Of a DNA stretch of 64,000 nucleotides, positions 500 through 55,640 are shown piece by piece. The position numbers were made by a program, and so were the translations under genes. The first letter of the stretch is position 1, and each line of letters begins with the position of its first letter. Under the pieces are notes generated by a model. The model made no database searches. It was not told where the DNA came from and saw nothing but the letters and a program-made list of their open reading frames with translations. Source of the DNA: an uncultured Candidatus Marinamargulisbacteria bacterium (GTDB lineage: Bacteria; Margulisbacteria; Riflemargulisbacteria; GWF2-35-9; DYQY01); contig CAYSAQ010000002.1 of assembly GCA_964429235.1 (NCBI GenBank), forward strand, positions 230,952 through 294,951. The letters run 5' to 3'.

Positions 500-568
500 G
501 GCATGACCTAGAACTATACTTGCTTTAGAGTTATTATTTTAAAAGAGTCTTTTAGTAGGAGTAGTATA

Positions 569-2077: not shown

Positions 2078-2079
2078 CA

Positions 2080-9389: not shown

Positions 9390-9390
9390 G

Positions 9391-12687: not shown

Positions 12688-12688
12688 C

Positions 12689-30027: not shown

Positions 30028-30126
30028 CTTCCCTTTTTACTATCATATCCGCAGATGTTTAAAAATCACTAATGTGGGCTTAATATTTAATGTTAAGAAG
30101 ATATATATGTTAAAGGGGACAAAATT

Positions 30127-31317: not shown

Positions 31318-31426
31318 CTATACAAGTTTCCTTCTATAAATCACGTTATCTAATATGGGTATAACTATGTTTAAAATCAGAGTATTTTGGGCACAATAAC
31401 TATATAAGATAAGGAGGTTGGATAAG

Positions 31427-37766: not shown

Positions 37767-38660
37767 ATGAAAAAGAATATAAAAGTTTGGATTCAGGCTA
37801 TAAGAGCATACTCTTTTACGGCATCGGTTGTTCCTGTTCTCATATGTTTTGCAATAGCAATTATGAATGGAAATAAAGTTGGTTTGTTGGACTTTTTTTT
37901 GATGTTGCTGGGGGTTCTTTGTATTCATGCAGCTACGAATTTAGTTAATGATTTTTATGATTATATAAAGGGTGTAGACAGGAAAGAAACAAAAGGCTCT
38001 AGCATGGTTTTAGTAGATGGCTTGTTGAAGCCTGCCCAGCTGATACCAGTTATAGCTATTTTTTATTCTATAGCATTAATTATTGGCACATATTTTATCT
38101 ATACCGCAAGTTCTCAATTATTGTGGTTTATTCTTATCGGATTGGGCGGAAGCTATTTTTATACAGCAGGAAACAAATCTTTAAAATATTTAGCACTGGG
38201 TGAACCTGCGGTGTTTTTATTAATGGGTCCTTTTTTGTTTTTAGCTATTTATTTTGGATTTACAGCAGAGTTCTCATTGGATGTTTTGCTATTCTCATTG
38301 CCTGTTGGATTACAGATTATGGCCATAATTACCGCTAATAATATCAGAGATATTGATGACGATAAGGCTTCTGGAATTAAGACAATAGCAATGCTTTTGG
38401 GTAAAAAGAAAGCTAAGTATTTGTACTATGCAGAGTTAGACTTTTCTTATTTATTACTAGGAATATATACTTTCTTTTACTATAAGAACTATTGGCTGTT
38501 ACTGCCAATGATTAGCTTGCCAATAGCTTTTAAATTAGTTAGAACTTTTTTAAAAGAAGAAACTTTGCCAGAAAATATAGTTGAAAATACTGCAAGGTTT
38601 CAGATGATATTTGGCTTATTATTATTTGCGGCACTAATGCTAACGTACCTTTTAGGATGA
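37767..38660 (+). CDS. UbiA-family prenyltransferase (MenA-like)
   Basis: Polytopic membrane protein with NDFYDYIKGVD and ANNIRDIDDDKASGIKT Asp-rich motifs typical of MenA/UbiA. Confidence 0.75.
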   Translation: MKKNIKVWIQAIRAYSFTASVVPVLICFAIAIMNGNKVGLLDFFLMLLGVLCIHAATNLVNDFYDYIKGVDRKETKGSSMVLVDGLLKPAQLIPVIAIFYSIALIIGTYFIYTASSQLLWFILIGLGGSYFYTAGNKSLKYLALGEPAVFLLMGPFLFLAIYFGFTAEFSLDVLLFSLPVGLQIMAIITANNIRDIDDDKASGIKTIAMLLGKKKAKYLYYAELDFSYLLLGIYTFFYYKNYWLLLPMISLPIAFKLVRTFLKEETLPENIVENTARFQMIFGLLLFAALMLTYLLG

Positions 38661-39652
38661 TAGAAGATTTTTCTAAAGAGTTAGCCGATGAGTATGCAAA
38701 GAATATTGCAGATCTTTTAAATATACATAAGCAAGATATTGGTCAGGATGCTTTTAATCAATTAACAAAATCAATGGCAGGTAAAGGGAAGATGTTTCGT
38801 TCGCTTCTAGCATTATTGGTTTTCTTGGGATATTCAAAGCAAGAGTCTCTAACAGAATCATATAGATGGGCAATTTCTTTTGATATTTTGCAGAGCTTCA
38901 TCTTGTTTCATGATGATATTCTTGATAAGGCAACAATAAGAAGAGGGAGCCCTGTTCCTTCCAAAGAGTTGGCATTAGTTTGGGGTGATATATTGTTTGC
39001 CTCTGGCGTAAAACAGTTTATGAGTATACCTGTAAATGAAGAAAAGAAATCGCTAGCATTAATGGAGCTAATGCAAATAGCAATTGATACAGGAATAGGC
39101 GAGATGGCAGATCAACGATTAGCTATTGGCAGAATAAAAGATATTACGGAAGAAGAGATTGCGCAGGTGTATATGAAAAAAACAGCCATGTATTCTTTTG
39201 TATCACCATTTGTTTGTGCTGCAATTATCGGTGGTGCAAGTAGCAAAGACATAGAATTATTGAGGACAGCAGGAAGTAAAATAGGAGTTGCGTATCAATA
39301 TTTAGATGATTTGATAGACGTTTTCATGAAAGAAGGAGATTCTGGGAAAACAAGCATGAATGATGTGCAGAATGGTAAATTGAATATAGTTTTATTTAAA
39401 TCATTAGCGTGTATAACAGAAAAAAAGGAACAAGAAAGATTTTTAAGTTCTTTGGAAATAGGGGACATTAAAAGCGTAAAAAGCTTTATAGAGAGTATTT
39501 CAGTAAAAAGAGATATTATTTCTAGTATTAATGCTTTAGTTCTGGAAGGCATACAGTGTATCGATAGTTTAGAAATAGATTTGCAATATAAAAAAAATAT
39601 TAAAAACATAATCTCTAGTTTATTTGAAAAGTACTTAATAAAGTTTATATAA
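38657..39652 (+). CDS. polyprenyl diphosphate synthase (trans-isoprenyl diphosphate synthase family)
   Basis: Two DDxxD motifs (FHDDILDKAT; YQYLDDLIDVF). Overlaps the MenA-like gene by 4 nt. Confidence 0.75.
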   Translation: MIEDFSKELADEYAKNIADLLNIHKQDIGQDAFNQLTKSMAGKGKMFRSLLALLVFLGYSKQESLTESYRWAISFDILQSFILFHDDILDKATIRRGSPVPSKELALVWGDILFASGVKQFMSIPVNEEKKSLALMELMQIAIDTGIGEMADQRLAIGRIKDITEEEIAQVYMKKTAMYSFVSPFVCAAIIGGASSKDIELLRTAGSKIGVAYQYLDDLIDVFMKEGDSGKTSMNDVQNGKLNIVLFKSLACITEKKEQERFLSSLEIGDIKSVKSFIESISVKRDIISSINALVLEGIQCIDSLEIDLQYKKNIKNIISSLFEKYLIKFI

Positions 39653-39683
39653 TAGGGCTAATAAGTATCTAGGAGGTAATAAG

Positions 39684-40064
39684 ATGGAATTTGCAAAGAA
39701 GAATGCACATTGGTTATTAAGGGCTGCCTTTGCAGCGGTATTTTTATTTCATGGTTTAAGTAAGTTTCCAGTTGCTGGAGCAATGGCTGGTATGATGGGC
39801 ATGCCTGTTATCGCGGTATATATGCTGGCGTTAATGGAAACAATGGCAGGGGTGTTGGTGCTGTATGGCGGGTTAGGTAATGGTTTAGCAACTAAGGTTG
39901 GTGGAGCATTAATAGTTCCTGTTATGTTAGGAGCAATCATGATGTTGCATGCTGGACAGTGGAGCTTTATGCCTACTGAACAATTTCCTGCTGGTGGCAT
40001 GGAATTCCAGGTAGTATTAATAGGGCTTTCTTTATATTTCTTATTTAAGGGAAATGATATTTAA
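39684..40064 (+). CDS. DoxX family membrane protein
   Basis: 126 aa with four hydrophobic helices and a DoxX-like N-terminus (LLRAAFAAVFLFHGLSKF). SD aggagg upstream. Confidence 0.7.
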   Translation: MEFAKKNAHWLLRAAFAAVFLFHGLSKFPVAGAMAGMMGMPVIAVYMLALMETMAGVLVLYGGLGNGLATKVGGALIVPVMLGAIMMLHAGQWSFMPTEQFPAGGMEFQVVLIGLSLYFLFKGNDI

Positions 40065-45750: not shown

Positions 45751-46248
45751 ATGCAAGTAGATGTAACACCATTATTATCAGAAATAGGAAATTCAGAAGA
45801 ATATTCTTTGGATGAGCCGTTTAAATTAGATTTAGGCGAAGATATGTCGCTAAAGGATAATGTAGTGCTAGAAGTGACAGTAGTTAATTCTGGAATGGGT
45901 TTGGTTGCAAAGGGAAGGATTTCGACAATTGTGAGCTTAGAATGCTCAATATGTTTGAAGCAATTTGACGAGAAAATTTCTTTTGAGTTTGAAGAGCGTT
46001 TTGTAGATGAATCCAAAAAATATTTTTCTGATGAGAAAGATTACGAAGTTCAGAATGATGACGTATTCTTCACGTATAGCGCAGATTTAACGATAGATTT
46101 CTCTGAAATGGCACGTGAACTTATTATTTTAAATTTGCCAATAGCACCTAAATGTGATATAAATTGTCAGGTTCAGAAACAAGAAGAGAAAAAGACAATA
46201 GATCCAAGACTGGCTGTTTTGGAACAACTAAAAAAGACGGAGGACTAG
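45751..46248 (+). CDS. yceD: YceD/DUF177 family protein
   Basis: 165 aa with CxxC...CxxC pairs (ECSICL; PKCDINCQ), located immediately upstream of rpmF as is typical. Confidence 0.8.
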   Translation: MQVDVTPLLSEIGNSEEYSLDEPFKLDLGEDMSLKDNVVLEVTVVNSGMGLVAKGRISTIVSLECSICLKQFDEKISFEFEERFVDESKKYFSDEKDYEVQNDDVFFTYSADLTIDFSEMARELIILNLPIAPKCDINCQVQKQEEKKTIDPRLAVLEQLKKTED

Positions 46249-46249
46249 A

Positions 46250-46438
46250 ATGGCAGTACCTAAAAAGAAAACCACTAAGATGAAGAGAGATCAGCGTAGA
46301 GCGCACTGGAAAGTTAAAATGCCAGAAATCTCAACTTGTCCTAATTGTCAGGCAGACGTTAGACCTTATCATGTTTGCACATCCTGTGGTGAATACCAAG
46401 GGCGTCAGATTTTGAATAAAACAGCAGTAGCTGAATAA
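46250..46438 (+). CDS. rpmF: 50S ribosomal protein L32
   Basis: MAVPKKKTTKMKRDQRRAHWK...CPNCQ...CTSCG is the L32 signature with a zinc ribbon. Confidence 0.9.
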   Translation: MAVPKKKTTKMKRDQRRAHWKVKMPEISTCPNCQADVRPYHVCTSCGEYQGRQILNKTAVAE

Positions 46439-46448
46439 TAAACCCCTA

Positions 46449-47444
46449 ATGAAAATAGCATTGGATGCAATGGGAGGAGATTTCGCCCCGAAGAACGAAG
46501 TTCTTGGTGCGATTGATGCTGTCCGCAAAAATTCAAAAATAGAAGTTGTTTTAGTCGGTGACGAAAAAGCAATAAACGAGGAGCTAGCAAAATATAAAAC
46601 GCGAAAGCGTATTTCTGTTGTACATGCTAGTGACCGAATAAGCATGAATGAACATCCTACAAAAGCAATTAAGAATAGCGACTCATCATTGATGGTTGCT
46701 ATTAAGATTTTAAAAGAAGGTAACGTAGATGCACTTGTATCTGCTGGAAACACTGGCGCAGTATTAGCTGCTTCTATATTTAAGATTGGAAGAATCGAGA
46801 ATGTAGAGAGACCAGGCATCGTTGCCGTATTCCCAACAATAGGCAAGCCAATAGTCGCACTAGACCTTGGTGCGAATGCTGATTGTAAGCCAAAGCACTT
46901 GGTTCAATTTGCAAAAATGGGATCTATATATTCGCAGCATAGATTTGGCATAGAGAAGCCAGAAGTAGCAATCCTTAATATAGGCGAAGAAGAAAAAAAA
47001 GGTAACGAGCTTACCACTGAGACATATCAAATATTAAAAAAAGATAAAGCGGTTAACTTTGTTGGCAACCTAGAGCCACAATATATATTTTCAGGTAAAG
47101 TAGATGTTGTTGTTTGTGATGGGTTTGTTGGAAATGTTGTCTTGAAGCTAGGAGAAGGACTTGTCTCTATGGTGTTTAAACTAATAAAAGCAACTATTAA
47201 GAAAAGCCTAATGGCTATGTTTGGCGCTGTGTTTATGGTTCCTGCATTAAAAAAGATTAAAAAGAAATTCGATTATGATGAGTTCGGAGGAACATTGTTA
47301 TTAGGAGTAAAAAAACCAGTAATAATTGCTCATGGATCAGCTAGCCCAAAAGCATTAAGAAATGCAATTGGCGAAGCAGCTATTATGGTTGAGGAAAATG
47401 TTGTTGATGATATTAGAAATATTTTAGTTGAAGAAGAAAAATAA
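46449..47444 (+). CDS. plsX: phosphate acyltransferase PlsX
   Basis: MKIALDAMGGDFAP N-terminus with the rpmF-plsX-fabH arrangement. Confidence 0.93.
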   Translation: MKIALDAMGGDFAPKNEVLGAIDAVRKNSKIEVVLVGDEKAINEELAKYKTRKRISVVHASDRISMNEHPTKAIKNSDSSLMVAIKILKEGNVDALVSAGNTGAVLAASIFKIGRIENVERPGIVAVFPTIGKPIVALDLGANADCKPKHLVQFAKMGSIYSQHRFGIEKPEVAILNIGEEEKKGNELTTETYQILKKDKAVNFVGNLEPQYIFSGKVDVVVCDGFVGNVVLKLGEGLVSMVFKLIKATIKKSLMAMFGAVFMVPALKKIKKKFDYDEFGGTLLLGVKKPVIIAHGSASPKALRNAIGEAAIMVEENVVDDIRNILVEEEK

Positions 47445-47455
47445 GAGGGGTCAGA

Positions 47456-48448
47456 ATGTCAAATAACAGTTATGGAATAATAGGCTCAGGTAACGCAATT
47501 CCAAAAAAGAAATTTATGAATGATGATTTTGTTAAGCTAGGGCTTGAAACAAATGATGAGTGGATAGCTTCACGAACAGGGATAAGACAAAGATTTATTG
47601 CAGAAGAAGAAACATCTGCAAGTTTGGCTATAGAAGCAGCAAGTAAAGCAATTGATAATGCGGGTATTGATAAAGATGATGTCGACCTTATTATAGTTGC
47701 CACAACAACTCCAGATTATCAATTGTTTCCATCTACTGCTTGTTTGGTTCAAGGCGCATTAGATATAAAGGAGACAGCAGCTTTTGATATTAGCGCTGCT
47801 TGTACTGGTTTTATTTATGCACTTGATACAGCAGTAAAGATGATGAAATCAGGGTTATATAAGAATGCATTAGTAATTGGGACGGACACATTAAGCAAAT
47901 ATTGCGACTGGAAAGATCGTTCTACAGTTGTTCTTTTTGGTGATGGCGCAGGCGCTGTCGTTTTAGGTAAGGTAGAAGATGGATATGGTTTGCTTTCTTC
48001 ATATCTTGGCGCTAAAGGTCAGGACTATGATAAATTGATTATTCCAAAGGGTGGATCAAAGGAAAAACTAACCAAAGAGACAGTTAACGACCCACTAGCT
48101 TCCATCCAAATGGATGGCCGAGCAATTTACAAATTCGCAATAAATATTATTGTGAAAATGATGGATGAAGCTTTAGCTACTGCTGGGCTGAAGAAAGAGG
48201 ACGTTACCTTCTTAATACCGCATCAAGCGAACAAAAGAATGATCGATTATGCGCAAGATAAGTTAGGATTGTCGGATAATCAGGTGTATGTTAACATTGA
48301 CAAATATGGCAATACATCCGGCGCATCAATCCCAATAGCAATCACTGAAGTAATGAGCAAAAACCTCCTTAAAAAAGGAGATATAGTGATAACTGTGGGC
48401 TTTGGCGCAGGGCTTACCTACGGGGCAAATGTTATTAAATGGATATAA
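47456..48448 (+). CDS. fabH: 3-oxoacyl-ACP synthase III
   Basis: 330 aa with active-site Cys context FDISAACTGFIYAL and the C-terminal HQANKRMIDY / GNTSGASIP motifs. Confidence 0.93.
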   Translation: MSNNSYGIIGSGNAIPKKKFMNDDFVKLGLETNDEWIASRTGIRQRFIAEEETSASLAIEAASKAIDNAGIDKDDVDLIIVATTTPDYQLFPSTACLVQGALDIKETAAFDISAACTGFIYALDTAVKMMKSGLYKNALVIGTDTLSKYCDWKDRSTVVLFGDGAGAVVLGKVEDGYGLLSSYLGAKGQDYDKLIIPKGGSKEKLTKETVNDPLASIQMDGRAIYKFAINIIVKMMDEALATAGLKKEDVTFLIPHQANKRMIDYAQDKLGLSDNQVYVNIDKYGNTSGASIPIAITEVMSKNLLKKGDIVITVGFGAGLTYGANVIKWI

Positions 48449-48479: not shown

Positions 48480-49640
48480 GTGGAATATTTCTTAACAGAC
48501 GAACAAAAAATGATCGTTGATCTATCAAAAAAGATTACGGACGAATATATCATTCCAGAAAGAGCAAGATTAGATAAGGAAGAAATCTTCCCAACAGAAA
48601 TCTTAAAGAAGATTGCAGAAGCTGATCTTTATGGACTATATATCCCAGAAGCATATGGTGGCTTCGGTGGTGGAGTTATGGACTTCATATTAGCAGTAGA
48701 AGAATTTAGTAAAGGATGTATCGGCGTATCTGTGTCTTTCGCAGCAAACGCTCTTGGTATTTATCCTGTTCTAGCTTTCGGAACTGAAGAACAAAAACAA
48801 AAATATTTACCAGCTATAGCAGCTGGTACAAGCCAAGCAGCTTTCGGCCTTACAGAAGCTAACGCTGGGTCAGACGCAGGCGGAGTTCAAGCTACTGCAG
48901 AACTAAAAGGGGATCATTATATTCTTAATGGTACAAAACAATGGATAACAAATGGCGCAGAAGCTGATACTTATACTGTTATTGCTATGACAGATAAGAA
49001 CAAAGGTGCTCGCGGAGCATCTGCTTTCATCGTTGAAAAAGGATGGGAAGGTTTTACTTTCGGTAAGAAAGAAGACAAGTTAGGTATTAGAGCTAGTTCT
49101 ACTACTGAGCTTATTTTCCAAGACGTTAAAGTTCCTAAAGAAAATTTATTAGGTAGAGAAGGAGTGGGTTTTATCATTGCTATGAAAAACTTAGACCATT
49201 CTAGACCAGGTATCGCAGCTCAGGGTGTAGGACTTGCACAAGGAGCTATGGAAGCAGCTGTTAAATACTCTAGAGAAAGAGTTCAGTTTGGTAAGCCAAT
49301 ATCTTCTTTCCAAGCTAACCAACATAAGTTAGCTAATATGGCTACACAGATTGAAGCATCAAGAGCTCTTTTATATCAAACAGCTAAGAATATTGATTCT
49401 GGTGTAAAAGATTTTTCAAGAGCATCAGCTATGTGCAAACTTATGGCTACAGACGTATGTATGGCTACAACAAATGAAGCACTACAGATTTTTGGTGGAT
49501 ATGGTTATATGAAAGAATATCCTATCGAAAAAATGTTTAGAGATGCTAAGATTCTTCAGATTTATGAAGGCACAAACGAAATTCAGAGAAATGTTATTGC
49601 TTTGGATGTAATCAAAGAAAGCGCAAGAAAAGACAAGTAG
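48480..49640 (+). CDS. acyl-CoA dehydrogenase (butyryl-CoA dehydrogenase-like)
   Basis: 386 aa with ACAD motifs (GLTEANAGSDAGG; QIFGGYGYMKEYPIEKMFRDAKILQIYEGTNEIQR). Confidence 0.9.
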   Translation: MEYFLTDEQKMIVDLSKKITDEYIIPERARLDKEEIFPTEILKKIAEADLYGLYIPEAYGGFGGGVMDFILAVEEFSKGCIGVSVSFAANALGIYPVLAFGTEEQKQKYLPAIAAGTSQAAFGLTEANAGSDAGGVQATAELKGDHYILNGTKQWITNGAEADTYTVIAMTDKNKGARGASAFIVEKGWEGFTFGKKEDKLGIRASSTTELIFQDVKVPKENLLGREGVGFIIAMKNLDHSRPGIAAQGVGLAQGAMEAAVKYSRERVQFGKPISSFQANQHKLANMATQIEASRALLYQTAKNIDSGVKDFSRASAMCKLMATDVCMATTNEALQIFGGYGYMKEYPIEKMFRDAKILQIYEGTNEIQRNVIALDVIKESARKDK

Positions 49641-49660
49641 TCTTTAGGAGGTAGAGTTAA

Positions 49661-50446
49661 ATGAATATTGCAGTTTGTATTAAACAGGTGCCTGACTCAG
49701 ACAAGGTTACTATCGATAGAGAGACTAACCGTCTAAATAGAGTAGGTGTTCCTAGTGTTATCAATCCATTCGATGAGAATGCATTAGAAATGGCACTTCA
49801 AATGAAAGAACAGTATGGAGCGAAGGTAACAGTTATTACTATGGGACCTCCTCAAGCAGAGCAAGCTTTGAGAGAAGCTATTTCTGTTGGAGCTGATGAA
49901 GCTATTCTTGTTACAGATAGAAAGTTTGCTGGAGCAGATACTTGGGCAACTTCTTATACTTTGAGCATGGTTGTTAAAAAGGCTGGAGATTTTGATCTTA
50001 TTCTTTTTGGTAAGCAAGCAATAGATGGTGATACTGCACAGGTTGGACCTGGCGTAGCGCACTTCCTTGATATTCCTGTTGTTACTTATGTTAAAGAAGC
50101 AGAGAAAACAGATACAGGATATAAAGTGAAAAGAGTAACTGAAGAAGGTTATCAGATTTGGGAAGTAGATGGTACCGCTGCATTTACTATAGTAAAAGAG
50201 GCAAACACAATGAGATTGCCTTCTTTAAAAGGTAAAATGAGAGCAAAGAGTGCGCCAATTACAACTTGGGGTGCGGAAGATATAGGAGCAGAAGATGCGA
50301 AGATCGGTCTTAACGGTTCTCCTACTATCGTAAGAAAAGTATTTGCTCCACCAATTAAAACAAATAGAGAAACAATTGATAACGAAGACGTGACTCAAGC
50401 AGTTAAAGAACTGGTTGGGAAGCTAAAGGAGAGGAAGATACTATGA
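49661..50446 (+). CDS. etfB: electron transfer flavoprotein subunit beta
   Basis: 261 aa with MNIAVCIKQVPD N-terminus typical of EtfB. Confidence 0.9.
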   Translation: MNIAVCIKQVPDSDKVTIDRETNRLNRVGVPSVINPFDENALEMALQMKEQYGAKVTVITMGPPQAEQALREAISVGADEAILVTDRKFAGADTWATSYTLSMVVKKAGDFDLILFGKQAIDGDTAQVGPGVAHFLDIPVVTYVKEAEKTDTGYKVKRVTEEGYQIWEVDGTAAFTIVKEANTMRLPSLKGKMRAKSAPITTWGAEDIGAEDAKIGLNGSPTIVRKVFAPPIKTNRETIDNEDVTQAVKELVGKLKERKIL

Positions 50447-51432
50447 GCGAGATTTGGATTTTTGCAGAACAACGTGACGGTGTAATAACTAAAGCGACTT
50501 TAGAATTGTTAAGCGAAGGACAGATATTAGCTGACAAGTCTGGCTATACTTTATGTGCGGTTCTATTATCAGCTGATGATAGTGACTTACTACAGCTTCT
50601 ATATAACTATGGAGCAAAGAAAGTATATTCAGCAGTAGATCCTAAACTGTCTTATTATCAGAATGATTATTATGCAAAGGTAATTGCTGACCTTGTGAAA
50701 GAAAACAAGCCAGAGATTATTCTTTATGGTGCAACTAGTGTTGGCAGAAGCTTAGCCCCAACAGTTGCCGTAATGGTAGATGCTGGACTTACAGCAGACT
50801 GTACTGAATTAGATTTTGATACAGAAGAAATGTTACTTACACAGACTAGACCTGCTTTTGGTGGAAACATCATGGCAACTATTCTTTGTCCTAACCATAG
50901 ACCACAAATGTCTACAGTTAGACCTAATGTTTTTAAGAAAACAGAAATAGGCACAAAAGAAAAAGGTGAAAAAATTGCTGTTAAAGCAGATCTTTCATCC
51001 ATAAAAGATAGAATGAGAATGATTGAAGAGACTCATGAAGAGTCTGATGCTATTGATCTTAGTGAAGCAGAAATTATTGTTTCTGGTGGCAGAGGAGTAG
51101 GTTCTAAAGAAAACTTCGCAATAATCGATGCCTTAGCTAAAGAAATAGGCGCAGGAGTAGGCGCTTCAAGAGCCACTGTTGATGCAGAGTGGATTGCTCA
51201 CTTTCATCAGGTTGGTCAGACAGGTAAGACAGTTTGTCCTAAGATTTACATTGCTTGTGGAATATCTGGTGCTATTCAGCACTTAGCAGGTATGCAAAGC
51301 TCTGATTTAGTCATTGCTGTTAATAAAGATCCTGAAGCACCAATTTTTGGTGTAGCAGATATCGGAGTTGTTGGCGATTTGCATGCGATAGTTCCGGAAC
51401 TAACAAAACAAATAAAGGCATCTAAGAGCTAA
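50443..51432 (+). CDS. etfA: electron transfer flavoprotein subunit alpha
   Basis: 329 aa with the C-terminal FAD-binding region (IVSGGRGVGSKENF...YIACGISGAIQHLAGM). Overlaps etfB by 4 nt. Confidence 0.9.
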   Translation: MSEIWIFAEQRDGVITKATLELLSEGQILADKSGYTLCAVLLSADDSDLLQLLYNYGAKKVYSAVDPKLSYYQNDYYAKVIADLVKENKPEIILYGATSVGRSLAPTVAVMVDAGLTADCTELDFDTEEMLLTQTRPAFGGNIMATILCPNHRPQMSTVRPNVFKKTEIGTKEKGEKIAVKADLSSIKDRMRMIEETHEESDAIDLSEAEIIVSGGRGVGSKENFAIIDALAKEIGAGVGASRATVDAEWIAHFHQVGQTGKTVCPKIYIACGISGAIQHLAGMQSSDLVIAVNKDPEAPIFGVADIGVVGDLHAIVPELTKQIKASKS

Positions 51433-51433
51433 A

Positions 51434-52351
51434 ATGAGCAGTACAGCTTTTATATATCCAGGACAGGGTTCTCAATTTGTGGGTATGGCTAAATCTATGG
51501 TTGAATCAAACCTAGATTTCTTTGCTGACCATATTGAGGTTATTAATGAAATTTGTGGAGAAGACTTTTTAGAGCTTATGTTCGAAGGTCCGATAGAAGA
51601 CCTTAGTGTAACTACAAATACTCAGCCTGCATTATTTATTGCATCTGCTTTAGTAACGGACCTTTTAAAAGAGAAGGGTGCTAATCCTAAGTTTGTCGCA
51701 GGACATAGTTTAGGAGAGTATTCCGCGTTATATGCAGCAGAAGTTTTCAATTTTCGCACAGGGCTCACTCTTGTTAAACAAAGAGGCGATATGATGAACA
51801 AAGCAGTTCCTGCTGGAGTAGGAACAATGGCAGCAATTATTGGACTAGCTCCTGAGAAAATCGAAGAGATTTCAAAAGACGCTGGTATTGAAGTTGCTAA
51901 CTATAACAATGCATCACAAATAATTGTTTCAGGTGAAAAAGAAAAAGTTGTAGCTAGTTTGGTAGCATTTAGTGAAGCTGGAGCAAAGAGAGCCATGGAG
52001 CTTAATGTAAGTGGACCATTTCATTCATCATTAATGAAACCAATGGCAGATGAATTTTCTCAGTTTTTGAGTGATATGGATTTTGTAGATGCAAAGATTC
52101 CCGTAGTTACAAATGTAGATGCTATGATTACAACAGATGCGAATGAAATCAAAAAAAAGCTAGTAAAACAATTGTACTCTTCAGTATACTGGATGCAGTC
52201 AGTTGAAAAACTAACAGCAAAAGGCGTGGACTCATATATTGAGTGCGGAGCTGGTAAAGTATTAACTGGGATTACAAAAAGAATTAGTAAAACTTCTCAA
52301 TTCACAGCTATTGATAATAGCGATGATTTGATAAGATATATTGAAGGATAA
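51434..52351 (+). CDS. fabD: malonyl CoA-ACP transacylase
   Basis: FIYPGQGSQFVGM and the active-site GHSLGEYSALYAA motif. Confidence 0.93.
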   Translation: MSSTAFIYPGQGSQFVGMAKSMVESNLDFFADHIEVINEICGEDFLELMFEGPIEDLSVTTNTQPALFIASALVTDLLKEKGANPKFVAGHSLGEYSALYAAEVFNFRTGLTLVKQRGDMMNKAVPAGVGTMAAIIGLAPEKIEEISKDAGIEVANYNNASQIIVSGEKEKVVASLVAFSEAGAKRAMELNVSGPFHSSLMKPMADEFSQFLSDMDFVDAKIPVVTNVDAMITTDANEIKKKLVKQLYSSVYWMQSVEKLTAKGVDSYIECGAGKVLTGITKRISKTSQFTAIDNSDDLIRYIEG

Positions 52352-52364
52352 AGAGGAGGAGCTT

Positions 52365-53099
52365 ATGAGTTTAAAAGGAAAAGTTGCCGTAGTTACTGGC
52401 GGTTCAAGAGGGATTGGGAAAGCAATCGCTTTAGAATTAGCAGGAAAAGGCGCAGATATTGCAATTTTAGATATGATGACAAGCGATACACCAGCAGAAA
52501 TAGAAAAGTTAGGCGTAAGAGCTATAGAAGTAAAGTGTGATGTTTCTGATGCAGAAAAAGCAGATGCCTCTATTAAAGAAGTAATAGAAAAGCTTGGCGC
52601 TGTAGACATTCTTGTTAATAACGCAGGAATCACAAGAGATAATTTAATGTTAAGAATGAAGATTGAAGAGTGGAATGCAGTTATTAACATTAATCTTACT
52701 GGTGTATATAACATGTCTAAGGCAGTTGTTAGACCAATGATGAAAGCTAAAAGCGGGAAGATAGTAAATATCGCTTCAGTTGTTGGGCAGATGGGTAATG
52801 CTGGACAAGCAAACTATTCTGCTGCGAAAGCTGGTGTAATTGGCCTTACAAAAACAATAGCAAGAGAGTTTGCAAAGAAAAATATTCAAGCAAACGCTGT
52901 TGCCCCAGGATTTATAAAAACAGAAATGACAGAAAAATTATCACAAGATGTTATTGATCATTTCAATAACAATATTCCTTCAGGTACATTTGGTACTCCT
53001 GAGGATGTTGCAAAAGCTGTAGCATTTTTGAGCTCAGCTGATTCCCAATACATAACCGGTCAGGTCATCAATGTTGATGGCGGACTTGTAATGAGTTAG
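52365..53099 (+). CDS. fabG: 3-oxoacyl-ACP reductase
   Basis: SDR motifs (VVTGGSRGIGKAIA; NNAGI; YSAAKAG). I prefer ATG at 52365 with aggagga 6 nt upstream over the track's TTG at 52341. Confidence 0.93.
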   Translation: MSLKGKVAVVTGGSRGIGKAIALELAGKGADIAILDMMTSDTPAEIEKLGVRAIEVKCDVSDAEKADASIKEVIEKLGAVDILVNNAGITRDNLMLRMKIEEWNAVININLTGVYNMSKAVVRPMMKAKSGKIVNIASVVGQMGNAGQANYSAAKAGVIGLTKTIAREFAKKNIQANAVAPGFIKTEMTEKLSQDVIDHFNNNIPSGTFGTPEDVAKAVAFLSSADSQYITGQVINVDGGLVMS

Positions 53100-53127: not shown

Positions 53128-53367
53128 ATGAATGAACAAGAAATTTATGAAAAAGTTAAAGCAGTTGTTGTAGAACAATTAGGTGTTAGCGAAAGTGAAG
53201 TAACGAAAGAAGCTTCATTCGTTGATGATCTAGGAGCTGATTCTCTAGATAGCGTTGAATTATTAATGGCGTTAGAGGAAGAATTCGGTACTGAGATTTC
53301 TGATGATGATGCAGAAGGACTTAAGTCTGTATCTGATACTGTTACTTATATCGGCGGTAAGCTGTAA
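53128..53367 (+). CDS. acpP: acyl carrier protein
   Basis: 79 aa with the phosphopantetheine attachment motif [20 protein letters not shown]. Confidence 0.93.
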
Positions 53368-53423: not shown

Positions 53424-54383
53424 ATGGAATTAAAACTAGTTAAGATAAAAAATCACAAGAAAGTACTCCCGATTATTCAGGGAGGAATGGCCATTAGAAT
53501 CTCTACCGGTAATTTAGCCGGTGCAGTTGCAGCAGAAAATGCAATTGGACTCATCGCAGCGTCAGGAATGTCGATGGATGAAGTAGTTGAAGAAGTAGAA
53601 ATAGCAAGAGAAAAATCACAGGGAAATGGGCTCGTAGGCGTTAACATCATGGTAGCAGCTACTGAATGTCTTGACCTGGTAAGAACATCGTTAGAAGCAG
53701 CTGTTGACCTTATTGTTGTAGGAGCAGGGTTTTCTAAAGACGTATTTAAAATTATTAAAGAAAGCAATTCGAAGACAGCAGTAGTTCCTGTTGTATCTTC
53801 TGCAAAGGCAGCCAGATTGTCTTATAAACTAGGTGCAGACGCAATAGTAGTTGAAGGCACAGAAGCTGGAGGGCATCTTGGAACAGATCGTCCTATGAAA
53901 GAGATTTTACAAGAAGTTCTTGTTGAAATTGATGGTAGGATTCCTGTGTTTGCTGCAGGTGGAGTATTGTATGGAAAAGATATTTGCGAAGTTATTAATA
54001 TGGGCGCCAAGGGTGTTCAGATGGGTACTAGATTTGTAATGAGTGAAGAATGTAATGCTGATATTAAATTTAAAGAGATGTATTTAAGGTATGGGGAGAC
54101 AGAAACTGTTAAGTTTTTGAGTCCAGCCGGATATCCTGGCAGAGCAGTCCCAAATAAATACATCGATAGAGTTAATGCTGGAGAGATAACGGATAGATGT
54201 ACGCATCTTTGTTTGAAATCATGTAGTAGAAAGTTTTGCATCATTGAGTCTTTAATAAGAGCTCAACAAGGTGATGTTGAGAATGGAATAGTTTTTGCCG
54301 GTAAGAGATTTAATGAAATTAAAGATATTCTTCCAGTTAAAACAATAATAAATAATTTAGTAACTGAAATTGCAGAGTGCTAA
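53424..54383 (+). CDS. fabK: enoyl-ACP reductase II (FabK; nitronate monooxygenase family)
   Basis: 319-aa FMN-dependent TIM-barrel with PIIQGGMA and GTEAGGHLG motifs. Its position between acpP and fabF supports FabK over a generic NMO. Confidence 0.85.
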   Translation: MELKLVKIKNHKKVLPIIQGGMAIRISTGNLAGAVAAENAIGLIAASGMSMDEVVEEVEIAREKSQGNGLVGVNIMVAATECLDLVRTSLEAAVDLIVVGAGFSKDVFKIIKESNSKTAVVPVVSSAKAARLSYKLGADAIVVEGTEAGGHLGTDRPMKEILQEVLVEIDGRIPVFAAGGVLYGKDICEVINMGAKGVQMGTRFVMSEECNADIKFKEMYLRYGETETVKFLSPAGYPGRAVPNKYIDRVNAGEITDRCTHLCLKSCSRKFCIIESLIRAQQGDVENGIVFAGKRFNEIKDILPVKTIINNLVTEIAEC

Positions 54384-54395
54384 GGAGGAATTATA

Positions 54396-55640
54396 ATGAC
54401 TAAAAAAAGAGTAGTAGTAACAGGATTAGGGATGATTTGCCCATTAGGACACGATGTAGATACAACTTGGGAGAATTTGTTAGCAGGAAAGAATGGAATC
54501 GTTTATCTTGAAGATGAAGGTTTTACCGATTTTCCAACAAGAATAGCTGGAACTGTAAAAGATTTTGACCCTGTTGAGTTTGGTATAGCACCAAAAGAAG
54601 CTAGAAGAATGTCAAGATTCTTACAGTTTGCAATTGTTGCTGCAAAAGAAGCAGTTTTAGATTCAGGATTAGATATTGAGAAAGATGCTGATTCAATTGG
54701 TGTTGGTATCGGTTCTGGTGTTGGTGGAATAGATGTAATGGCAGCTAATGCTATAGCACTTCACGAAAGAGGAGTAAGAAAAGTATCTCCTTTTACTGTG
54801 CCAATGATGATTAATGATATGGCAGCTGGAATTGTTAGTATTGAGCTTGGTGCAAAAGGACCAAACTTCTGTACAACAACAGCTTGTGCATCTGGAACTC
54901 ACACAATTGGTGATTGTTTCAAGCTTATCCAAGATGATAGAGCAATTGCTATGGTTGCAGGCGGTGCGGAAGCGGCTGTAACTCCATTAGGGATGGCTGG
55001 ATTCTGTGCAGCAAAATCTCTTTCAACTAGAAATGATGAGCCAGAAAAAGCAAGCAGACCATTTGATGCAGATCGTACTGGATTTGTAATGGGTGAAGGT
55101 TCTGGAATTATTATTTTAGAAGAATTGGAACATGCAAAAGCAAGAGGCGCAAAAATTTATGCTGAGATGATTGGCTATGGCCTATCAGGTGATGCCTATC
55201 ACTTAACAGCTCCGCCAGCTGATGGTAATGGTGCTGCTAGAGCAATCAAAATGGCTCTTAAAGATGCTGGGCTAGCCCCAACAGATGTTGATTATGTAAA
55301 CGCACACGGAACATCTACTAAGCTTAATGACCAACAAGAAACTAATGCAATAAAAACTGTATTTGGCGATCACGCTCATAACTTGATGATAAGCTCTACT
55401 AAGTCTATGACAGGTCACCTTCTTGGTGCAGCTGGTGCAATAGAAGCAATATTCTTAGCAAAGACTATTCAAGATTGTATAGTTGCTCCAACTATCAATT
55501 ACGATACTCCAGACGAAGAGCTGGACCTTGATTATGTTCCTAATGTAGCAAGAGAGGCTGAAGTTAATGTAGCTATTTCAGATTCTTTTGGATTCGGCGG
55601 ACATAACGGTGTAATTGCTATGAAGAAGTTTCTTTATTAA
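54396..55640 (+). CDS. fabF: 3-oxoacyl-ACP synthase II
   Basis: 414 aa with active-site Cys context (TTTACASGTH), His motifs (NAHGTST; GHLLGAAG) and the C-terminal NSFGFGGHN. Confidence 0.93.
   Translation: MTKKRVVVTGLGMICPLGHDVDTTWENLLAGKNGIVYLEDEGFTDFPTRIAGTVKDFDPVEFGIAPKEARRMSRFLQFAIVAAKEAVLDSGLDIEKDADSIGVGIGSGVGGIDVMAANAIALHERGVRKVSPFTVPMMINDMAAGIVSIELGAKGPNFCTTTACASGTHTIGDCFKLIQDDRAIAMVAGGAEAAVTPLGMAGFCAAKSLSTRNDEPEKASRPFDADRTGFVMGEGSGIIILEELEHAKARGAKIYAEMIGYGLSGDAYHLTAPPADGNGAARAIKMALKDAGLAPTDVDYVNAHGTSTKLNDQQETNAIKTVFGDHAHNLMISSTKSMTGHLLGAAGAIEAIFLAKTIQDCIVAPTINYDTPDEELDLDYVPNVAREAEVNVAISDSFGFGGHNGVIAMKKFLY

What the first reader, a model, noticed from the sequence alone, without database searches (positions are those of the whole stretch)
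48480..51432. Acyl-CoA dehydrogenase and etfBA inserted inside the FAS II operon between fabH and fabD
The operon reads plsX-fabH-acd-etfB-etfA-fabD-fabG-acpP-fabK-fabF with short spacers or overlaps. Bcd-EtfAB normally belongs to butyrate or crotonyl-CoA metabolism and acts on CoA thioesters, not ACP thioesters. Embedding it in the biosynthetic operon suggests co-regulation of an enoyl-reduction step with fatty acid synthesis, possibly an electron-bifurcating reduction feeding short-chain primers, or a rearrangement.
Basis: partly seen in the sequence, partly recalled or inferred. Interest (0 to 1): 0.45.

Follow-up and report, generated by a model that had tools for sequence, protein, structure and literature searches.

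The report
Acyl-CoA dehydrogenase–Etf cassette replacing FabK
In this uncultured anaerobe (probably Margulisbacteria) the fatty-acid synthesis operon carries a butyryl-CoA-dehydrogenase-like enzyme and its bifurcating-type electron-transfer flavoprotein exactly where related operons carry the enoyl-ACP reductase FabK, so it is probably a new, possibly energy-conserving enzyme for that step.

Summary
yceD-rpmF-plsX-fabH-ACAD-etfB-etfA-fabD-fabG-acpP-NMO-fabF lie on one strand with spacers of -4 to 56 nt. No same-strand terminator-like site lies next to the ACAD-etf genes.

It is not a chance insertion.
- The same order recurs in relatives with 85, 79, 70 and 69% ACAD identity, and in a Saganbacteria contig.
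- ACADs at least 55% identical to this one are fab-linked in 18 of 53 loci, in at least six arrangements. For other Bcd-like ACADs the figure is 1 of 91 (p = 2.5e-8), and those sit next to thiolase and Hbd instead.
- Collinear Firmicute operons (Acetohalobium, Heliobacterium, Sporomusaceae) carry a true FabK between fabH and fabD. Here that slot holds ACAD-etfBA.

The Etf is of the bifurcating type: Gly123 is kept and the best solved-structure matches are CarDE and C. difficile EtfAB. It is a conserved paralogue with four cysteines, closest to H. pylori FabX.

Published gene tables show no thiolase or Hbd in the related Margulisbacteria genomes (thiolase in 2 of 26 Saganbacteria), so "Bcd" has no obvious CoA substrate there.

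Best reading (about 0.5): an ACAD-EtfAB enoyl-ACP reductase, probably coupling NADH oxidation to ferredoxin reduction. This is untested biochemically, and I found no description of it in the literature.

The parts
45751..46248 (+). yceD (first gene of the conserved yceD-rpmF-plsX-fab block)
   Evidence: PF02620, E 1.9e-18. It holds the same position in L004, L006, L172, L174, L175 and L176.
46250..46438 (+). rpmF (ribosomal protein L32)
   Evidence: PF01783, E 1e-22.
46449..47444 (+). plsX (phosphate acyltransferase)
   Evidence: PF02504, E 1.7e-111.
47456..48448 (+). fabH (beta-ketoacyl-ACP synthase III)
   Evidence: TIGR00747, 386 bits against a cutoff of 292.
48480..49640 (+). Bcd-like acyl-CoA dehydrogenase of a distinct, fab-linked clade; proposed catalytic subunit of an enoyl-thioester (enoyl-ACP) reductase
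   Evidence: It has all three ACAD domains. The best solved-structure matches are A. fermentans Bcd 4L1F (2.4e-123) and C. difficile Bcd 5OL2_C, with the catalytic YEGT glutamate kept. It falls below every NCBIfam equivalog cutoff; the best is AcrC at 456 against 640. Clade signature: a one-residue deletion after N90, S241-R-P243 and K351. A GTG start with an AGGAGG ribosome-binding site lies 31 nt after fabH.
49661..50446 (+). etfB, bifurcating-type small Etf subunit
   Evidence: PF01012. Best PDB matches are CarD 6FAH (1.3e-72), C. difficile EtfB, A. fermentans EtfB, T. maritima EtfB and LctB; 5OW0, the only weaker ETF match (type not checked), scores only 1.5e-29. Gly123 in D-G-D-T is kept here and in all 40 clade-linked EtfBs. 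The marker is taken from PMC12630350.
50443..51432 (+). etfA, large Etf subunit (no N-terminal ferredoxin domain in this genome)
   Evidence: PF01012 + PF00766. The best PDB match is CarE 6FAH (1.2e-104), starting at CarE residue 71, that is, after CarE's first ~70 residues. Relatives L006, L007, L172, L173 and L170 carry a 394-404 aa EtfA with Fer4 domains. It overlaps etfB by 4 nt and ends 1 nt before fabD.
51434..52351 (+). fabD (malonyl-CoA:ACP transacylase)
   Evidence: TIGR00128, 324 bits against a cutoff of 261.
52365..53099 (+). fabG (3-oxoacyl-ACP reductase)
   Evidence: TIGR01830, 329 bits against a cutoff of 298. The start is as called on the identical contig L002.
53128..53367 (+). 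acpP (acyl carrier protein)
   Evidence: TIGR00517, 107 bits against a cutoff of 70.
53424..54383 (+). NMO-family flavoprotein 'NMO#2' with a four-cysteine motif (C259, C263, C267, C272). It is FabX-like, not canonical FabK. It is a candidate FMN/[4Fe-4S] acyl-ACP dehydrogenase/isomerase or a second reductase.
   Evidence: It scores 175 bits against FabK TIGR03151, cutoff 453. The best PDB sequence match is H. pylori FabX, 2e-39, with the four Cys aligned to FabX's cluster ligands; C. difficile FabK lacks them. All 120 best homologues carry four Cys. The AF2 model has pLDDT 92.6; the top fold match is FabX with TM 0.88, against 0.79-0.84 for FabKs. It is 45-69% identical to the second NMO gene of collinear operons and 30-34% identical to their true FabK.
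54396..55640 (+). fabF (beta-ketoacyl-ACP synthase II)
   Evidence: TIGR03150, 617 bits against a cutoff of 494.

Best explanation
The ACAD and EtfBA genes form the enoyl-reduction module of this organism's type II fatty-acid synthase. They took the place of FabK by non-orthologous displacement.

Proposed mechanism, by analogy with Bcd-EtfAB and CarCDE:
1. NADH reduces the bifurcating FAD of EtfB.
2. One electron goes uphill to ferredoxin or flavodoxin.
3. The other goes through the EtfA FAD to the ACAD FAD.
4. The ACAD reduces trans-2-enoyl thioesters, most simply enoyl-ACP, to acyl thioesters.

The large free-energy drop of each elongation cycle would then be partly conserved as reduced ferredoxin instead of being lost.

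The neighbouring four-cysteine NMO protein is a separate, conserved component. It may be a FabX-like acyl-ACP dehydrogenase/isomerase for unsaturated fatty acids.

Shown here: gene identity, operon architecture, conservation, occupancy of the FabK slot, the bifurcating-type Etf, and the absence of butyrate-pathway neighbours.

Inferred: the substrate (ACP versus CoA thioester, chain length), the direction of the reaction, and the coupling to ferredoxin.
For: 1. Tight same-strand packing with ribosome-binding sites and no internal terminators.

2. The same order plsX-fabH-ACAD-etfB-etfA-fabD-fabG-acpP-NMO-fabF is found in:
- Margulisbacteria relatives (L004, 85% ACAD identity; L006, 79%, where fabD is missing),
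- a Firmicute-like genome (L007, 70%),
- a MAG labelled Actinomycetota (L172, 69%),
- with a few interposed genes, Saganbacteria (L173)
.

3. In Acetohalobium arabaticum, Heliobacterium undosum and a Sporomusaceae genome the operon is collinear (yceD-rpmF-fapR-plsX-fabH-X-fabD-fabG-acpP-NMO#2-fabF-rnc). There X is a true FabK (TIGR03151 500 and 506 bits in two of them, cutoff 453; the third is 60-61% identical to those two). Here X is ACAD-etfBA.

4. ACADs at least 55% identical to this one have core fab genes within 10 kb in 18 of 53 loci, against 1 of 91 for more distant Bcd-like ACADs (Fisher p = 2.5e-8). At least six different arrangements occur: plsX-ACAD-fabD, fabG-ACAD-acpP, fabF-ACAD-etfBA, fabF-rnc-ACAD, ACAD-etfBA-yceD-rpmF-fabD, and the window type.

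5. Neighbour census.
- Clade: FabG 9, KAS 7, FabD 6, PlsX 4, FabH 4; thiolase_C, 3HCDH and ECH are not among the 25 commonest families.
- Outgroup: thiolase 12, 3HCDH 10, ECH 3, CoA-transferase 3; no FAS family among the 25 commonest.

6. No FabI or true FabK lies in the window or in any clade locus.

7. The Etf is of the bifurcating type (marker from PMC12630350).

8. KO tables of PMC6349859:
- Riflemargulisbacteria and 26 Saganbacteria lack FabI.
- Saganbacteria have no KO-annotated FabK.
- 23 of 26 Saganbacteria have 'Bcd' and 25 of 26 have EtfB.
- The aerobic Marinamargulisbacteria have FabI and lack Bcd and Etf.
- Thiolase is absent from all five Riflemargulisbacteria and from 24 of 26 Saganbacteria. 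Hbd is absent from all but one genome.

9. The ACAD clade differs from Bcd at positions where it resembles medium-chain ACAD. This MCAD comparison rests on my recalled MCAD sequence, not on a tool result. The positions are helix E length, S/T-R-P and K351.
Against: - There is no biochemical or genetic test.
- The ACAD is still about 55% identical to genuine butyryl-CoA dehydrogenases. It shows no obvious clade-specific gain of a basic patch for ACP docking. It does not match the carrier-protein-dependent ACAD models (MbtN, PigA, RedW are all below cutoff).
- 35 of 53 clade loci are not fab-linked. Many Omnitrophota and Planctomycetes members sit next to MarC, an NTP-transferase and a GNAT instead.
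- The four-cysteine NMO protein could itself be the reductase. In F. nucleatum, overexpressed FabX partly offsets FabK inhibition (PMC11091888). Having two enoyl reductases in one genome is also common (my background knowledge).
- The KO absences come from MAGs. The same tables also miss FabZ, so they under-call genes. They do not list FabV or FabL.
- PMC6349859 stated that the Etf of these lineages has an AMP-binding domain and probably does not bifurcate. My reading of Gly123 and of the closest solved structures disagrees with that, but neither view has been tested.
Confidence: 0.5

Rival explanations
1. Primer supply. The complex is a true enoyl-CoA reductase that makes butyryl-CoA or another short or branched acyl-CoA, which FabH then uses as a starter.
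For: The ACAD is closest to CoA-dependent Bcd enzymes. The gene lies directly after fabH in the window type.
Against: - No thiolase, Hbd or crotonase lies in the 64 kb window, and these families are not among the 25 commonest next to sampled clade members.
- KO tables show thiolase and Hbd absent from the related genomes.
- In L010 and L011 the ACAD sits in a fab cluster with no fabH beside it. In L020, L103 and L106 it follows fabF.
- In collinear operons the slot is FabK's, not a primer enzyme's.
Confidence: 0.12
2. Oxidative role. The ACAD dehydrogenates acyl-ACP, as in FabX-type backtracking, to start unsaturated fatty-acid synthesis or another modification, and Etf carries the electrons away. 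Alternatively, EtfAB serves as redox partner of the four-cysteine NMO protein.
For: - ACADs normally dehydrogenate.
- Backtracking desaturation exists in H. pylori (PMC8626469).
- The NMO protein's predicted [4Fe-4S] site would need a one-electron partner, and most relatives' EtfA carries a ferredoxin domain.
Against: - The Etf is the NADH-linked bifurcating type, whose ACAD partners (Bcd, CarC) work reductively.
- The FabX-like NMO#2 already covers a backtracking role. It also occurs without ACAD-Etf in Firmicute operons.
- Clade ACADs occur in fab clusters without NMO#2. The two modules are therefore independent.
- The cassette replaces a reductase, FabK.
Confidence: 0.13
3. An ordinary fermentative or redox-balancing Bcd-EtfAB. 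Its position in the fab operon reflects only shared expression of housekeeping genes, or a neutral insertion inherited by descent and operon transfer.
For: PMC6349859 treated it as a generic Bcd/EtfAB. Two thirds of clade loci are not fab-linked. The whole window-type operon could have spread by horizontal transfer, which would inflate the apparent recurrence.
Against: - At least six independent arrangements within fab clusters occur in different phyla.
- The contrast with other Bcd-like ACADs is strong: 18 of 53 against 1 of 91.
- Neighbour families differ completely between the two groups.
- No route to crotonyl-CoA appears in the related genomes.
- The clade has its own sequence signature.
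Confidence: 0.1

Closest known systems
Bcd-EtfAB, the electron-bifurcating butyryl-CoA dehydrogenase complex (C. difficile 5OL2, A. fermentans 4KPU/4L1F, C. kluyveri)
   Same: - Three-gene ACAD-etfB-etfA cassette.
- About 55% ACAD identity, with the catalytic Glu in YEGT kept along with the Tyr and Gln of straight-chain ACADs.
- EtfB with Gly123.
- The best or near-best solved-structure matches for all three subunits.
   Different: - It is embedded in the FAS II operon rather than next to thl, hbd and crt.
- The related genomes lack thiolase and Hbd.
- The ACAD belongs to a separate clade with a helix E deletion, S/T-R-P instead of G-R-I, and K351 instead of R.
CarCDE, the caffeyl-CoA reductase-Etf complex of Acetobacterium woodii (6FAH)
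   Same: It is the best solved-structure match for EtfB (1.3e-72) and EtfA (1.2e-104). Most relatives' EtfA carries the same kind of N-terminal ferredoxin domain as CarE.
   Different: The window's own EtfA lacks the ferredoxin domain. The ACAD is nearer to Bcd than to CarC. The context is fatty-acid synthesis, not phenylacrylate respiration.
FabK, the FMN- and NADH-dependent enoyl-ACP reductase II
   Same: The cassette occupies the same place in the operon, between fabH and fabD, and is proposed to do the same step.
   Different: The protein family is unrelated: an ACAD plus a two-subunit Etf instead of a single TIM-barrel flavoprotein. The proposed stoichiometry is 2 NADH per double bond with ferredoxin reduction.
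FabX, the H. pylori FMN/[4Fe-4S] acyl-ACP dehydrogenase/isomerase (relevant to ORF 53424-54383)
   Same: It is the best sequence and fold match. The four cysteines align with C300, C304, C308 and C320. The catalytic His in GGH is kept.
   Different: - Only 29-32% identity.
- It is 319 aa against 363 aa and lacks FabX insertions.
- FabX's ACP-contact residues T130 and R164 are K and S here.
- It forms its own large family in anaerobic Firmicutes, Saganbacteria and Margulisbacteria, always next to fabF in the operons examined.
Carrier-protein-dependent ACAD-family dehydrogenases (MbtN, PigA, RedW, AnaB 4IRN)
   Same: They show that the ACAD fold can act on ACP- or PCP-tethered thioesters. They give weak matches to the window ACAD.
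   Different: All fall far below family cutoffs (82-257 bits against cutoffs of 500-700). They are oxidative tailoring enzymes of secondary metabolism with no Etf partner in the operon.

Membership tests
Bcd-EtfAB bifurcating butyryl-CoA dehydrogenase complex | ACAD with three domains and a catalytic glutamate in the YEGT motif | tested here: met
   Pfam PF02771/02770/00441. The alignment to 4L1F and 5OL2_C shows Y362-E363-G-T and Q248 conserved.
Bcd-EtfAB bifurcating butyryl-CoA dehydrogenase complex | EtfB able to bind a second (bifurcating) FAD: Gly123 (A. fermentans numbering) and closest similarity to bifurcating ETFs | tested here: met
   D122-G123-D-T is present. The top five PDB matches are ETFs of bifurcating or confurcating complexes (per PMC5691135, PMC9232219, PMC10734219, PMC12630350) (1e-57 to 1e-72), against 1.5e-29 for 5OW0, the next ETF match. 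All 40 clade-linked EtfBs have DGDT. The criterion is taken from PMC12630350.
Bcd-EtfAB bifurcating butyryl-CoA dehydrogenase complex | Association with enzymes that make crotonyl-CoA (thiolase, 3-hydroxybutyryl-CoA dehydrogenase, crotonase) | tested here: not met
   None is found in the 64 kb window. None is among the 25 commonest families of 125 clade neighbour ORFs, whereas outgroup neighbours have thiolase 12, 3HCDH 10 and ECH 3. KO tables for Riflemargulisbacteria and Saganbacteria show thiolase and Hbd absent.
Bcd-EtfAB bifurcating butyryl-CoA dehydrogenase complex | Bcd-type sequence signature (S-A-H-x-S-L helix E, G-G-R-I-G, E-R before the catalytic loop) | tested here: not met
   The clade has A-A-(gap)-S/N-A-L, S/T-R-P-G and E-K. 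K351 is found in 100% of the clade, against R in 100% of the outgroup.
Bcd-EtfAB bifurcating butyryl-CoA dehydrogenase complex | NADH- and crotonyl-CoA-dependent ferredoxin reduction | not testable with these tools
   This needs an enzyme assay.
Enoyl-ACP reductase (functional class), for ACAD-EtfAB | Encoded within the FAS II operon at the position held by the reductase in collinear operons | tested here: met
   L174, L175 and L176 carry FabK between fabH and fabD. The window, L004, L006, L007, L172 and L173 carry ACAD-etfBA there.
Enoyl-ACP reductase (functional class), for ACAD-EtfAB | No other enoyl-ACP reductase in the genome (phyletic complementarity) | tested here: inconclusive
   No FabI or true FabK is found in the window or the clade loci. 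KO tables show FabI absent where Bcd and Etf are present, and the reverse in Marinamargulisbacteria. However, NMO#2 is present, FabV and FabL are not tabulated, the genomes are MAGs, and whole genomes could not be scanned here.
Enoyl-ACP reductase (functional class), for ACAD-EtfAB | Reduces trans-2-enoyl-ACP | not testable with these tools
   This needs complementation of fabI(ts) or an in vitro assay.
FabK (enoyl-ACP reductase II), for ORF 53424-54383 | Reaches the curated FabK model cutoff | tested here: not met
   TIGR03151 scores 175 bits against a cutoff of 453. True FabKs of L174 and L175 score 500 and 506.
FabK (enoyl-ACP reductase II), for ORF 53424-54383 | C-terminal region without an Fe-S site (the NAD(P)H-binding region of FabK) | tested here: not met
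   The ORF has C259-x3-C263-x3-C267-x4-C272. C. difficile FabK and the three operon FabKs have a gap or no Cys at these positions.
FabX (FMN/[4Fe-4S] acyl-ACP dehydrogenase/isomerase), for ORF 53424-54383 | Four cysteines that ligate the [4Fe-4S] cluster, and the catalytic histidine | tested here: met
   The four Cys align with FabX C300, C304, C308 and C320. H151 in GGHLG aligns with H182. These residues are invariant in 39 homologues and four Cys are present in all 120.
FabX (FMN/[4Fe-4S] acyl-ACP dehydrogenase/isomerase), for ORF 53424-54383 | Close sequence relationship (the authors used more than 50% identity) and the FabX-specific ACP-contact residues R164 and T130 | tested here: not met
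   Identity is 29-32%. T130 aligns with K and R164 with S, and the insertion that precedes R164 is absent.
FabX (FMN/[4Fe-4S] acyl-ACP dehydrogenase/isomerase), for ORF 53424-54383 | Converts decanoyl-ACP to cis-3-decenoyl-ACP | not testable with these tools
   This needs an assay or complementation.
Carrier-protein-dependent ACADs (MbtN, PigA, RedW) | Reaches a family model cutoff | tested here: not met
   MbtN 82 against 700, PigA 257 against 500, RedW 249 against 650.

The most novel reading that the evidence does not exclude
ACAD-EtfAB is a new class of bacterial enoyl-ACP reductase that works by flavin-based electron bifurcation (2 NADH + oxidised ferredoxin + enoyl-ACP gives 2 NAD+ + reduced ferredoxin + acyl-ACP). 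Membrane-lipid synthesis in many uncultured anaerobes (Margulisbacteria, Saganbacteria, Omnitrophota, some Planctomycetes, Syntrophorhabdaceae, some Firmicutes) would then return energy as reduced ferredoxin. The neighbouring four-cysteine NMO protein would be the long-sought double-bond-introducing enzyme of anaerobic Firmicute-type FAS II.
Probability: 0.35. Interest if true: 0.9.

Novelty: new variant of a known kind. Interest (0 to 1): 0.72.

Why it matters
Enoyl-ACP reduction is the pacemaker step of bacterial fatty-acid synthesis and a validated drug target. Each new reductase family (FabK, FabL, FabV) was first spotted by the same kind of gene-neighbourhood argument used here.

An Etf-dependent, ferredoxin-reducing reductase would be the first case of electron bifurcation built into a core anabolic pathway. 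It would change energy and redox budgets drawn for anaerobes known only from metagenomes. It would also explain an "orphan Bcd/EtfAB" already noted, but not explained, in Margulisbacteria, Saganbacteria and Melainabacteria.

It further shows that the gene annotated FabK in these genomes is a different, FabX-like iron-sulfur flavoprotein. That protein is conserved next to fabF in many anaerobes whose route to unsaturated fatty acids is unknown.

Tried and rejected
- **Literature.** Eight full-text searches found no description of an ACAD-Etf cassette in a fab operon or of an Etf-dependent enoyl-ACP reductase. The only mention is a generic "Bcd/EtfAB" in PMC6349859. The Garcia Costas 2017 paper that classifies ETFs is not held, so I took the Gly123 criterion from PMC12630350.
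- **FapR operator.** A scan for a FapR-type box gave one match, far from the operon and at chance level. No convincing palindrome lies upstream of yceD. No fapR gene lies in the window, although the Firmicute operons have one.
- **CoA versus ACP from sequence.** I looked for clade-specific residues. There are 16 signature positions but no clear new basic patch. I could not map CoA-contact residues without coordinates, and PMC5691135 does not list them. This question stays unresolved.
- **Search coverage.** The pattern-based scans of genome and metagenome collections did not return the closest Margulisbacteria relatives, because the peptide patterns were too specific. I reached those relatives by exact-protein look-ups instead.
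- **Gap genes.** I checked whether the roughly 0.9 kb gene between fabF and the ACAD in several loci was a hidden reductase. It is RNase III.
- **Organism name.** The Margulisbacteria assignment rests on the nearest named homologues: 79% identity for the ACAD and 64% for the NMO protein.
- **Chance or foreign insertion, rejected.** Composition is flat across the cassette and the linkage is conserved.

Full report
**1. What is in the sequence**

Between 45.7 and 55.6 kb the + strand carries twelve genes:

| Gene | Coordinates |
|---|---|
| yceD | 45751-46248 |
| rpmF | 46250-46438 |
| plsX | 46449-47444 |
| fabH | 47456-48448 |
| acyl-CoA dehydrogenase (ACAD) | 48480-49640 |
| etfB | 49661-50446 |
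| etfA | 50443-51432 |
| fabD | 51434-52351 |
| fabG | 52365-53099 |
| acpP | 53128-53367 |
| NMO-family flavoprotein | 53424-54383 |
| fabF | 54396-55640 |

The fab genes reach their curated NCBIfam cutoffs.

The junctions around the cassette are 31 nt, 20 nt, a 4 nt overlap and 1 nt. AGGAGG ribosome-binding sites precede the ACAD (GTG start) and etfB.

A consensus scan finds no + strand terminator-like site between 46772 and 54638. Promoter-like sites are fewer than in shuffled sequence. G+C is flat at 0.37-0.39.

Downstream follow rnhB, yraN, pta and ackA. Upstream, on the other strand, lie an AcrB/OEP efflux pair.

The rest of the window holds no thiolase, 3-hydroxyacyl-CoA dehydrogenase, crotonase, FabI or FabZ.

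**2. Whose genome**

The nearest named homologues of the ACAD (79% identity) and of the NMO protein (64%) come from Candidatus Margulisbacteria MAGs. LptF/G and outer-membrane efflux genes fit a diderm.

**3. The linkage is conserved, and it is specific to one ACAD clade**

Exact-protein look-ups show the same order in four other genomes, and with a few interposed genes in a Saganbacteria (WOR-1) contig:
- L004, 85% ACAD identity.
- L006, 79% identity, Margulisbacteria GWF2_35_9; fabD is missing there.
- L007, 70% identity, a genome with a Firmicute-like surrounding (fakA-degV-recG ... rnc-smc).
- L172, 69% identity, a MAG labelled Actinomycetota.
- L173, the Saganbacteria contig.

I then surveyed 160 loci fetched purely by ACAD similarity from genome and metagenome collections. 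I annotated them by tblastn with the window's proteins.

ACADs at least 55% identical to the window's group together in a neighbour-joining tree. They have core fab genes within 10 kb in 18 of 53 non-redundant loci. The more distant Bcd-like ACADs do so in 1 of 91 (Fisher p = 2.5e-8). One of the 18, L173, was fetched through a fab-operon gene; without it the count is 17 of 52.

The arrangements differ among phyla:

| Arrangement | Loci |
|---|---|
| plsX-ACAD-fabD, with no fabH or etf alongside | L010, L011 (Syntrophorhabdaceae and a related deltaproteobacterium) |
| fabG-ACAD-acpP | L096 |
| fabF-ACAD(-etfBA) | L020, L103, L106 (Omnitrophota and others) |
| fabF-rnc-ACAD | L024, L025, L109, L110; the gap gene is RNase III |
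| ACAD-etfBA-yceD-rpmF-fabD | L107 |

A Pfam census of ORFs within 3.5 kb makes the contrast plain.
- Clade neighbours (125 ORFs): FabG 9, ketoacyl synthase 7, FabD 6, PlsX 4, FabH 4. Thiolase_C, 3HCDH and ECH are not among the 25 commonest families.
- Outgroup neighbours (127 ORFs): thiolase 12, 3HCDH 10, TetR 9, ECH 3, CoA-transferase 3. No FAS family is among the 25 commonest.

A second recurrent clade context, in Omnitrophota and Planctomycetes, is MarC, an NTP-transferase and a GNAT upstream, with SMC downstream. In a Negativicute-like Firmicute the cassette lies inside the lipid A cluster, between lpxL/kdsC-like genes and lpxC-fabZ-lpxA.

**4. The cassette sits in FabK's slot**

Homologues of the window's NMO protein led to three Firmicute genomes, two of them from named isolates:
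- Acetohalobium arabaticum (L174).
- Heliobacterium undosum (L175).
- A Sporomusaceae genome (L176).

Their operon is (pta-)ackA-yceD-rpmF-fapR-plsX-fabH-NMO#1-fabD-fabG-acpP-NMO#2-fabF-rnc.

NMO#1 is a bona fide FabK. It scores 500 and 506 bits on TIGR03151 (cutoff 453) in L174 and L175. The L176 copy is 60-61% identical to those two.

NMO#2 scores only 203-230 bits. It is the orthologue of the window's NMO ORF: 45-69% identity within NMO#2, against 30-38% between NMO#1 and NMO#2.

Gene for gene, then, the window's operon equals the Firmicute operon, except that the fabH-fabD slot holds ACAD-etfB-etfA instead of FabK, and fapR is absent. This is the classical signature of non-orthologous displacement. 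FabK was itself first recognised by its place in a fab cluster (my background knowledge).

No true FabK or FabI occurs in the window or in any clade locus.

**5. What kind of Etf and ACAD**

*Etf.* EtfB's five best solved-structure matches are all bifurcating or confurcating ETFs:
- CarD 6FAH, 1.3e-72.
- C. difficile 5OL2.
- A. fermentans 4KPU.
- T. maritima 7KOE.
- LctB 7QH2.

The next ETF match (5OW0) scores 1.5e-29. EtfA behaves likewise; its best match is CarE at 1.2e-104.

Gly123, which is invariant in bifurcating EtfB and replaced by bulkier residues in canonical ETFs (PMC12630350), is present. All 40 EtfBs next to clade ACADs have it.

PMC6349859 had noted a "Bcd/EtfAB" in Margulisbacteria RA1A, in all Saganbacteria and in many Melainabacteria. 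It judged bifurcation unlikely because of an "AMP-binding domain", and it did not mention the fab linkage. My residue-level check points the other way.

The window's EtfA (329 aa) lacks the N-terminal ferredoxin domain found in most relatives (394-404 aa). Both forms exist among known bifurcating ETFs.

*ACAD.* It is about 55% identical to A. fermentans and C. difficile Bcd. It keeps the catalytic Glu (Y362-E363-G-T) and Q248. It reaches no NCBIfam equivalog cutoff.

Against 97 outgroup sequences the clade has 16 signature positions. They include:
- a one-residue deletion in the helix E segment (AA-SALG against SAHxSLG);
- S/T-R-P against G-R-I;
- K351 (100% of the clade) against R (100% of the outgroup).

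At these positions the clade matches what I recall of medium-chain ACAD (E-A-N-S-L-G, T-R-P, E-K). That comparison rests on my memory of the MCAD sequence and is only a hint that the acyl pocket differs from Bcd's. I could not decide between CoA and ACP thioesters from sequence.

**6. The "fabK" ORF**

Its best solved-structure match, by sequence and by fold, is H. pylori FabX, the FMN/[4Fe-4S] acyl-ACP dehydrogenase/isomerase.
- Sequence: 2e-39.
- Fold: AF2 model with pLDDT 92.6; Foldseek TM 0.88, against 0.79-0.84 for FabKs.

C259, C263, C267 and C272 align with FabX's cluster ligands C300, C304, C308 and C320. C. difficile FabK and the three operon FabKs lack them.

All 120 best homologues carry four Cys, as C-x3-C-x3-C-x4-C or C-x2-C-x3-C-x4-C. 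They come from Halanaerobiales, Heliobacteria, Negativicutes, WOR-1 and Margulisbacteria.

It is nonetheless not a close FabX. Identity is 29-32%, it is shorter, and FabX's ACP-contact residues T130 and R164 are K and S.

A FabK plus FabX pair is known in F. nucleatum, where FabX overexpression partly offsets a FabK inhibitor (PMC11091888). NMO#2 is therefore best described as a third, uncharacterised branch of the FabK/FabX family. It could be a FabX-like enzyme for unsaturated fatty acids, or a second reductase fed by a one-electron donor.

**7. Independent phyletic evidence**

The KO tables of PMC6349859 cover 46 genomes.

| Group | FabI | FabK (KO) | Bcd | Etf | Thiolase |
|---|---|---|---|---|---|
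| 5 Riflemargulisbacteria | absent | present in 4 (presumably NMO#2) | present | present | absent |
| 3 aerobic Marinamargulisbacteria | present | absent | absent | absent | present |
| 26 Saganbacteria | absent | absent | 23 of 26 | EtfB 25 of 26 | absent in 24 of 26 |

Hbd is absent from all genomes but one. These organisms therefore have a FAS II set plus an "orphan" Bcd-Etf with no evident route to crotonyl-CoA.

Caveats:
- These are MAGs.
- The same tables miss FabZ in most genomes.
- FabV and FabL are not tabulated.
- Saganbacteria do carry NMO#2.

**8. Interpretation**

The most economical reading is that ACAD-EtfAB supplies the enoyl-reduction step of FAS II in these lineages. Because the Etf is the NADH-linked bifurcating type, the reaction would also reduce ferredoxin.

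- Shown: architecture, conservation, slot replacement, Etf type, absence of butyrate-pathway context.
- Inferred: substrate, direction, coupling.

I put this at about 0.5. The rivals are:
- Primer supply, 0.12. It is weakened by the missing crotonyl-CoA route and by arrangements without fabH.
- An oxidative or backtracking role, or service as redox partner of NMO#2, 0.13. It is weakened by the independence of the two modules and by the reductive precedent of bifurcating Etf-ACAD pairs.
- A generic fermentative Bcd-EtfAB sited in the operon by chance, 0.10. It is weakened by the recurrence statistics and the clade signature.

The main reasons for caution are four. The ACAD remains close to CoA-dependent Bcd. 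Two thirds of clade members are not fab-linked. NMO#2 is an alternative reductase. There is no experiment.

**9. Novelty**

Eight full-text searches found no description of this arrangement or of an Etf-dependent enoyl-ACP reductase.

The parts are known kinds: a Bcd-like ACAD, a bifurcating Etf and FAS II. The proposed recruitment is a new variant, which would amount to a new enoyl-ACP reductase class if the substrate is ACP-bound.

Noticed in passing
window 53424-54383; L174:10001-10975, L175:10001-10945, L176:10001-10954, L173:10001-10954: A large family of NMO-type flavoproteins with four conserved cysteines (FabX-like, predicted [4Fe-4S]) sits between acpP and fabF in fab operons of Halanaerobiales, Heliobacteria, Negativicutes, Saganbacteria and Margulisbacteria. 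In the Firmicutes it occurs in addition to a true FabK. It is a candidate for the unknown anaerobic route to unsaturated fatty acids. Databases name it 'nitronate monooxygenase' or count it as FabK.
   Followed up: partly
L008/L009 8001-11315 (contigs carrying P0043, 'Firmicutes bacterium'): In a Negativicute-like Firmicute the same ACAD-etfB-etfA(Fer4) clade cassette lies inside the lipid A/Kdo cluster (kdtA-lpxK-kdsB-kdsA-kpsF-lpxL ... lpxC-fabZ-lpxA). This is another lipid-synthesis context.
   Followed up: no
L016, L017, L097, L099, L101, L119, L170 (upstream of the ACAD): In Omnitrophota and Planctomycetes the clade cassette is preceded by a conserved MarC, NTP-transferase/LbH (about 405 aa) and GNAT (about 150 aa) trio. 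It is often followed by SMC. The meaning is unknown.
   Followed up: no
window 56729-58916, compared with L174:1164-3397, L175:2078-3268 and L176:1938-3140: pta and/or ackA lies next to the yceD-rpmF-fab block in both the window (downstream) and the Firmicute operons (upstream). Acetate/acetyl-phosphate genes and FAS genes are conserved neighbours across these phyla.
   Followed up: no
window 29-2741: A squalene/phytoene synthase fragment, an amine-oxidase/phytoene-desaturase-like flavoprotein and a DUF2141 protein lie together. This suggests squalene or carotenoid-type isoprenoid synthesis in this anaerobe. uppS, cdsA and dxr follow at 7835-10527.
   Followed up: no
window 37767-40064: A UbiA-family prenyltransferase, a polyprenyl synthase and DoxX lie together just upstream of the AcrB/OEP efflux genes.
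   Followed up: no
window 11608-13273, 17853-20227, 21713-23486, 26133-27755, 29329-32512, 35828-36553: Several sizeable ORFs (194-540 aa) have no Pfam match at E <= 1e-5.
   Followed up: no
window 50443-51432 compared with L006:9979-11166: The N-terminal ferredoxin (2x[4Fe-4S]) domain of EtfA is present in most relatives, including a 79%-identity Margulisbacteria relative. It is absent in the window and in its 85% relative. This looks like a recent domain loss.
   Followed up: partly
PMC6349859, main text and Supplementary Data 2-3: The published statement that the Etf of these lineages is non-bifurcating (AMP-binding) conflicts with Gly123 and with the closest solved structures. The KO tables also miss FabZ in most genomes, which suggests under-annotation or a fused or divergent dehydratase.
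   Followed up: partly
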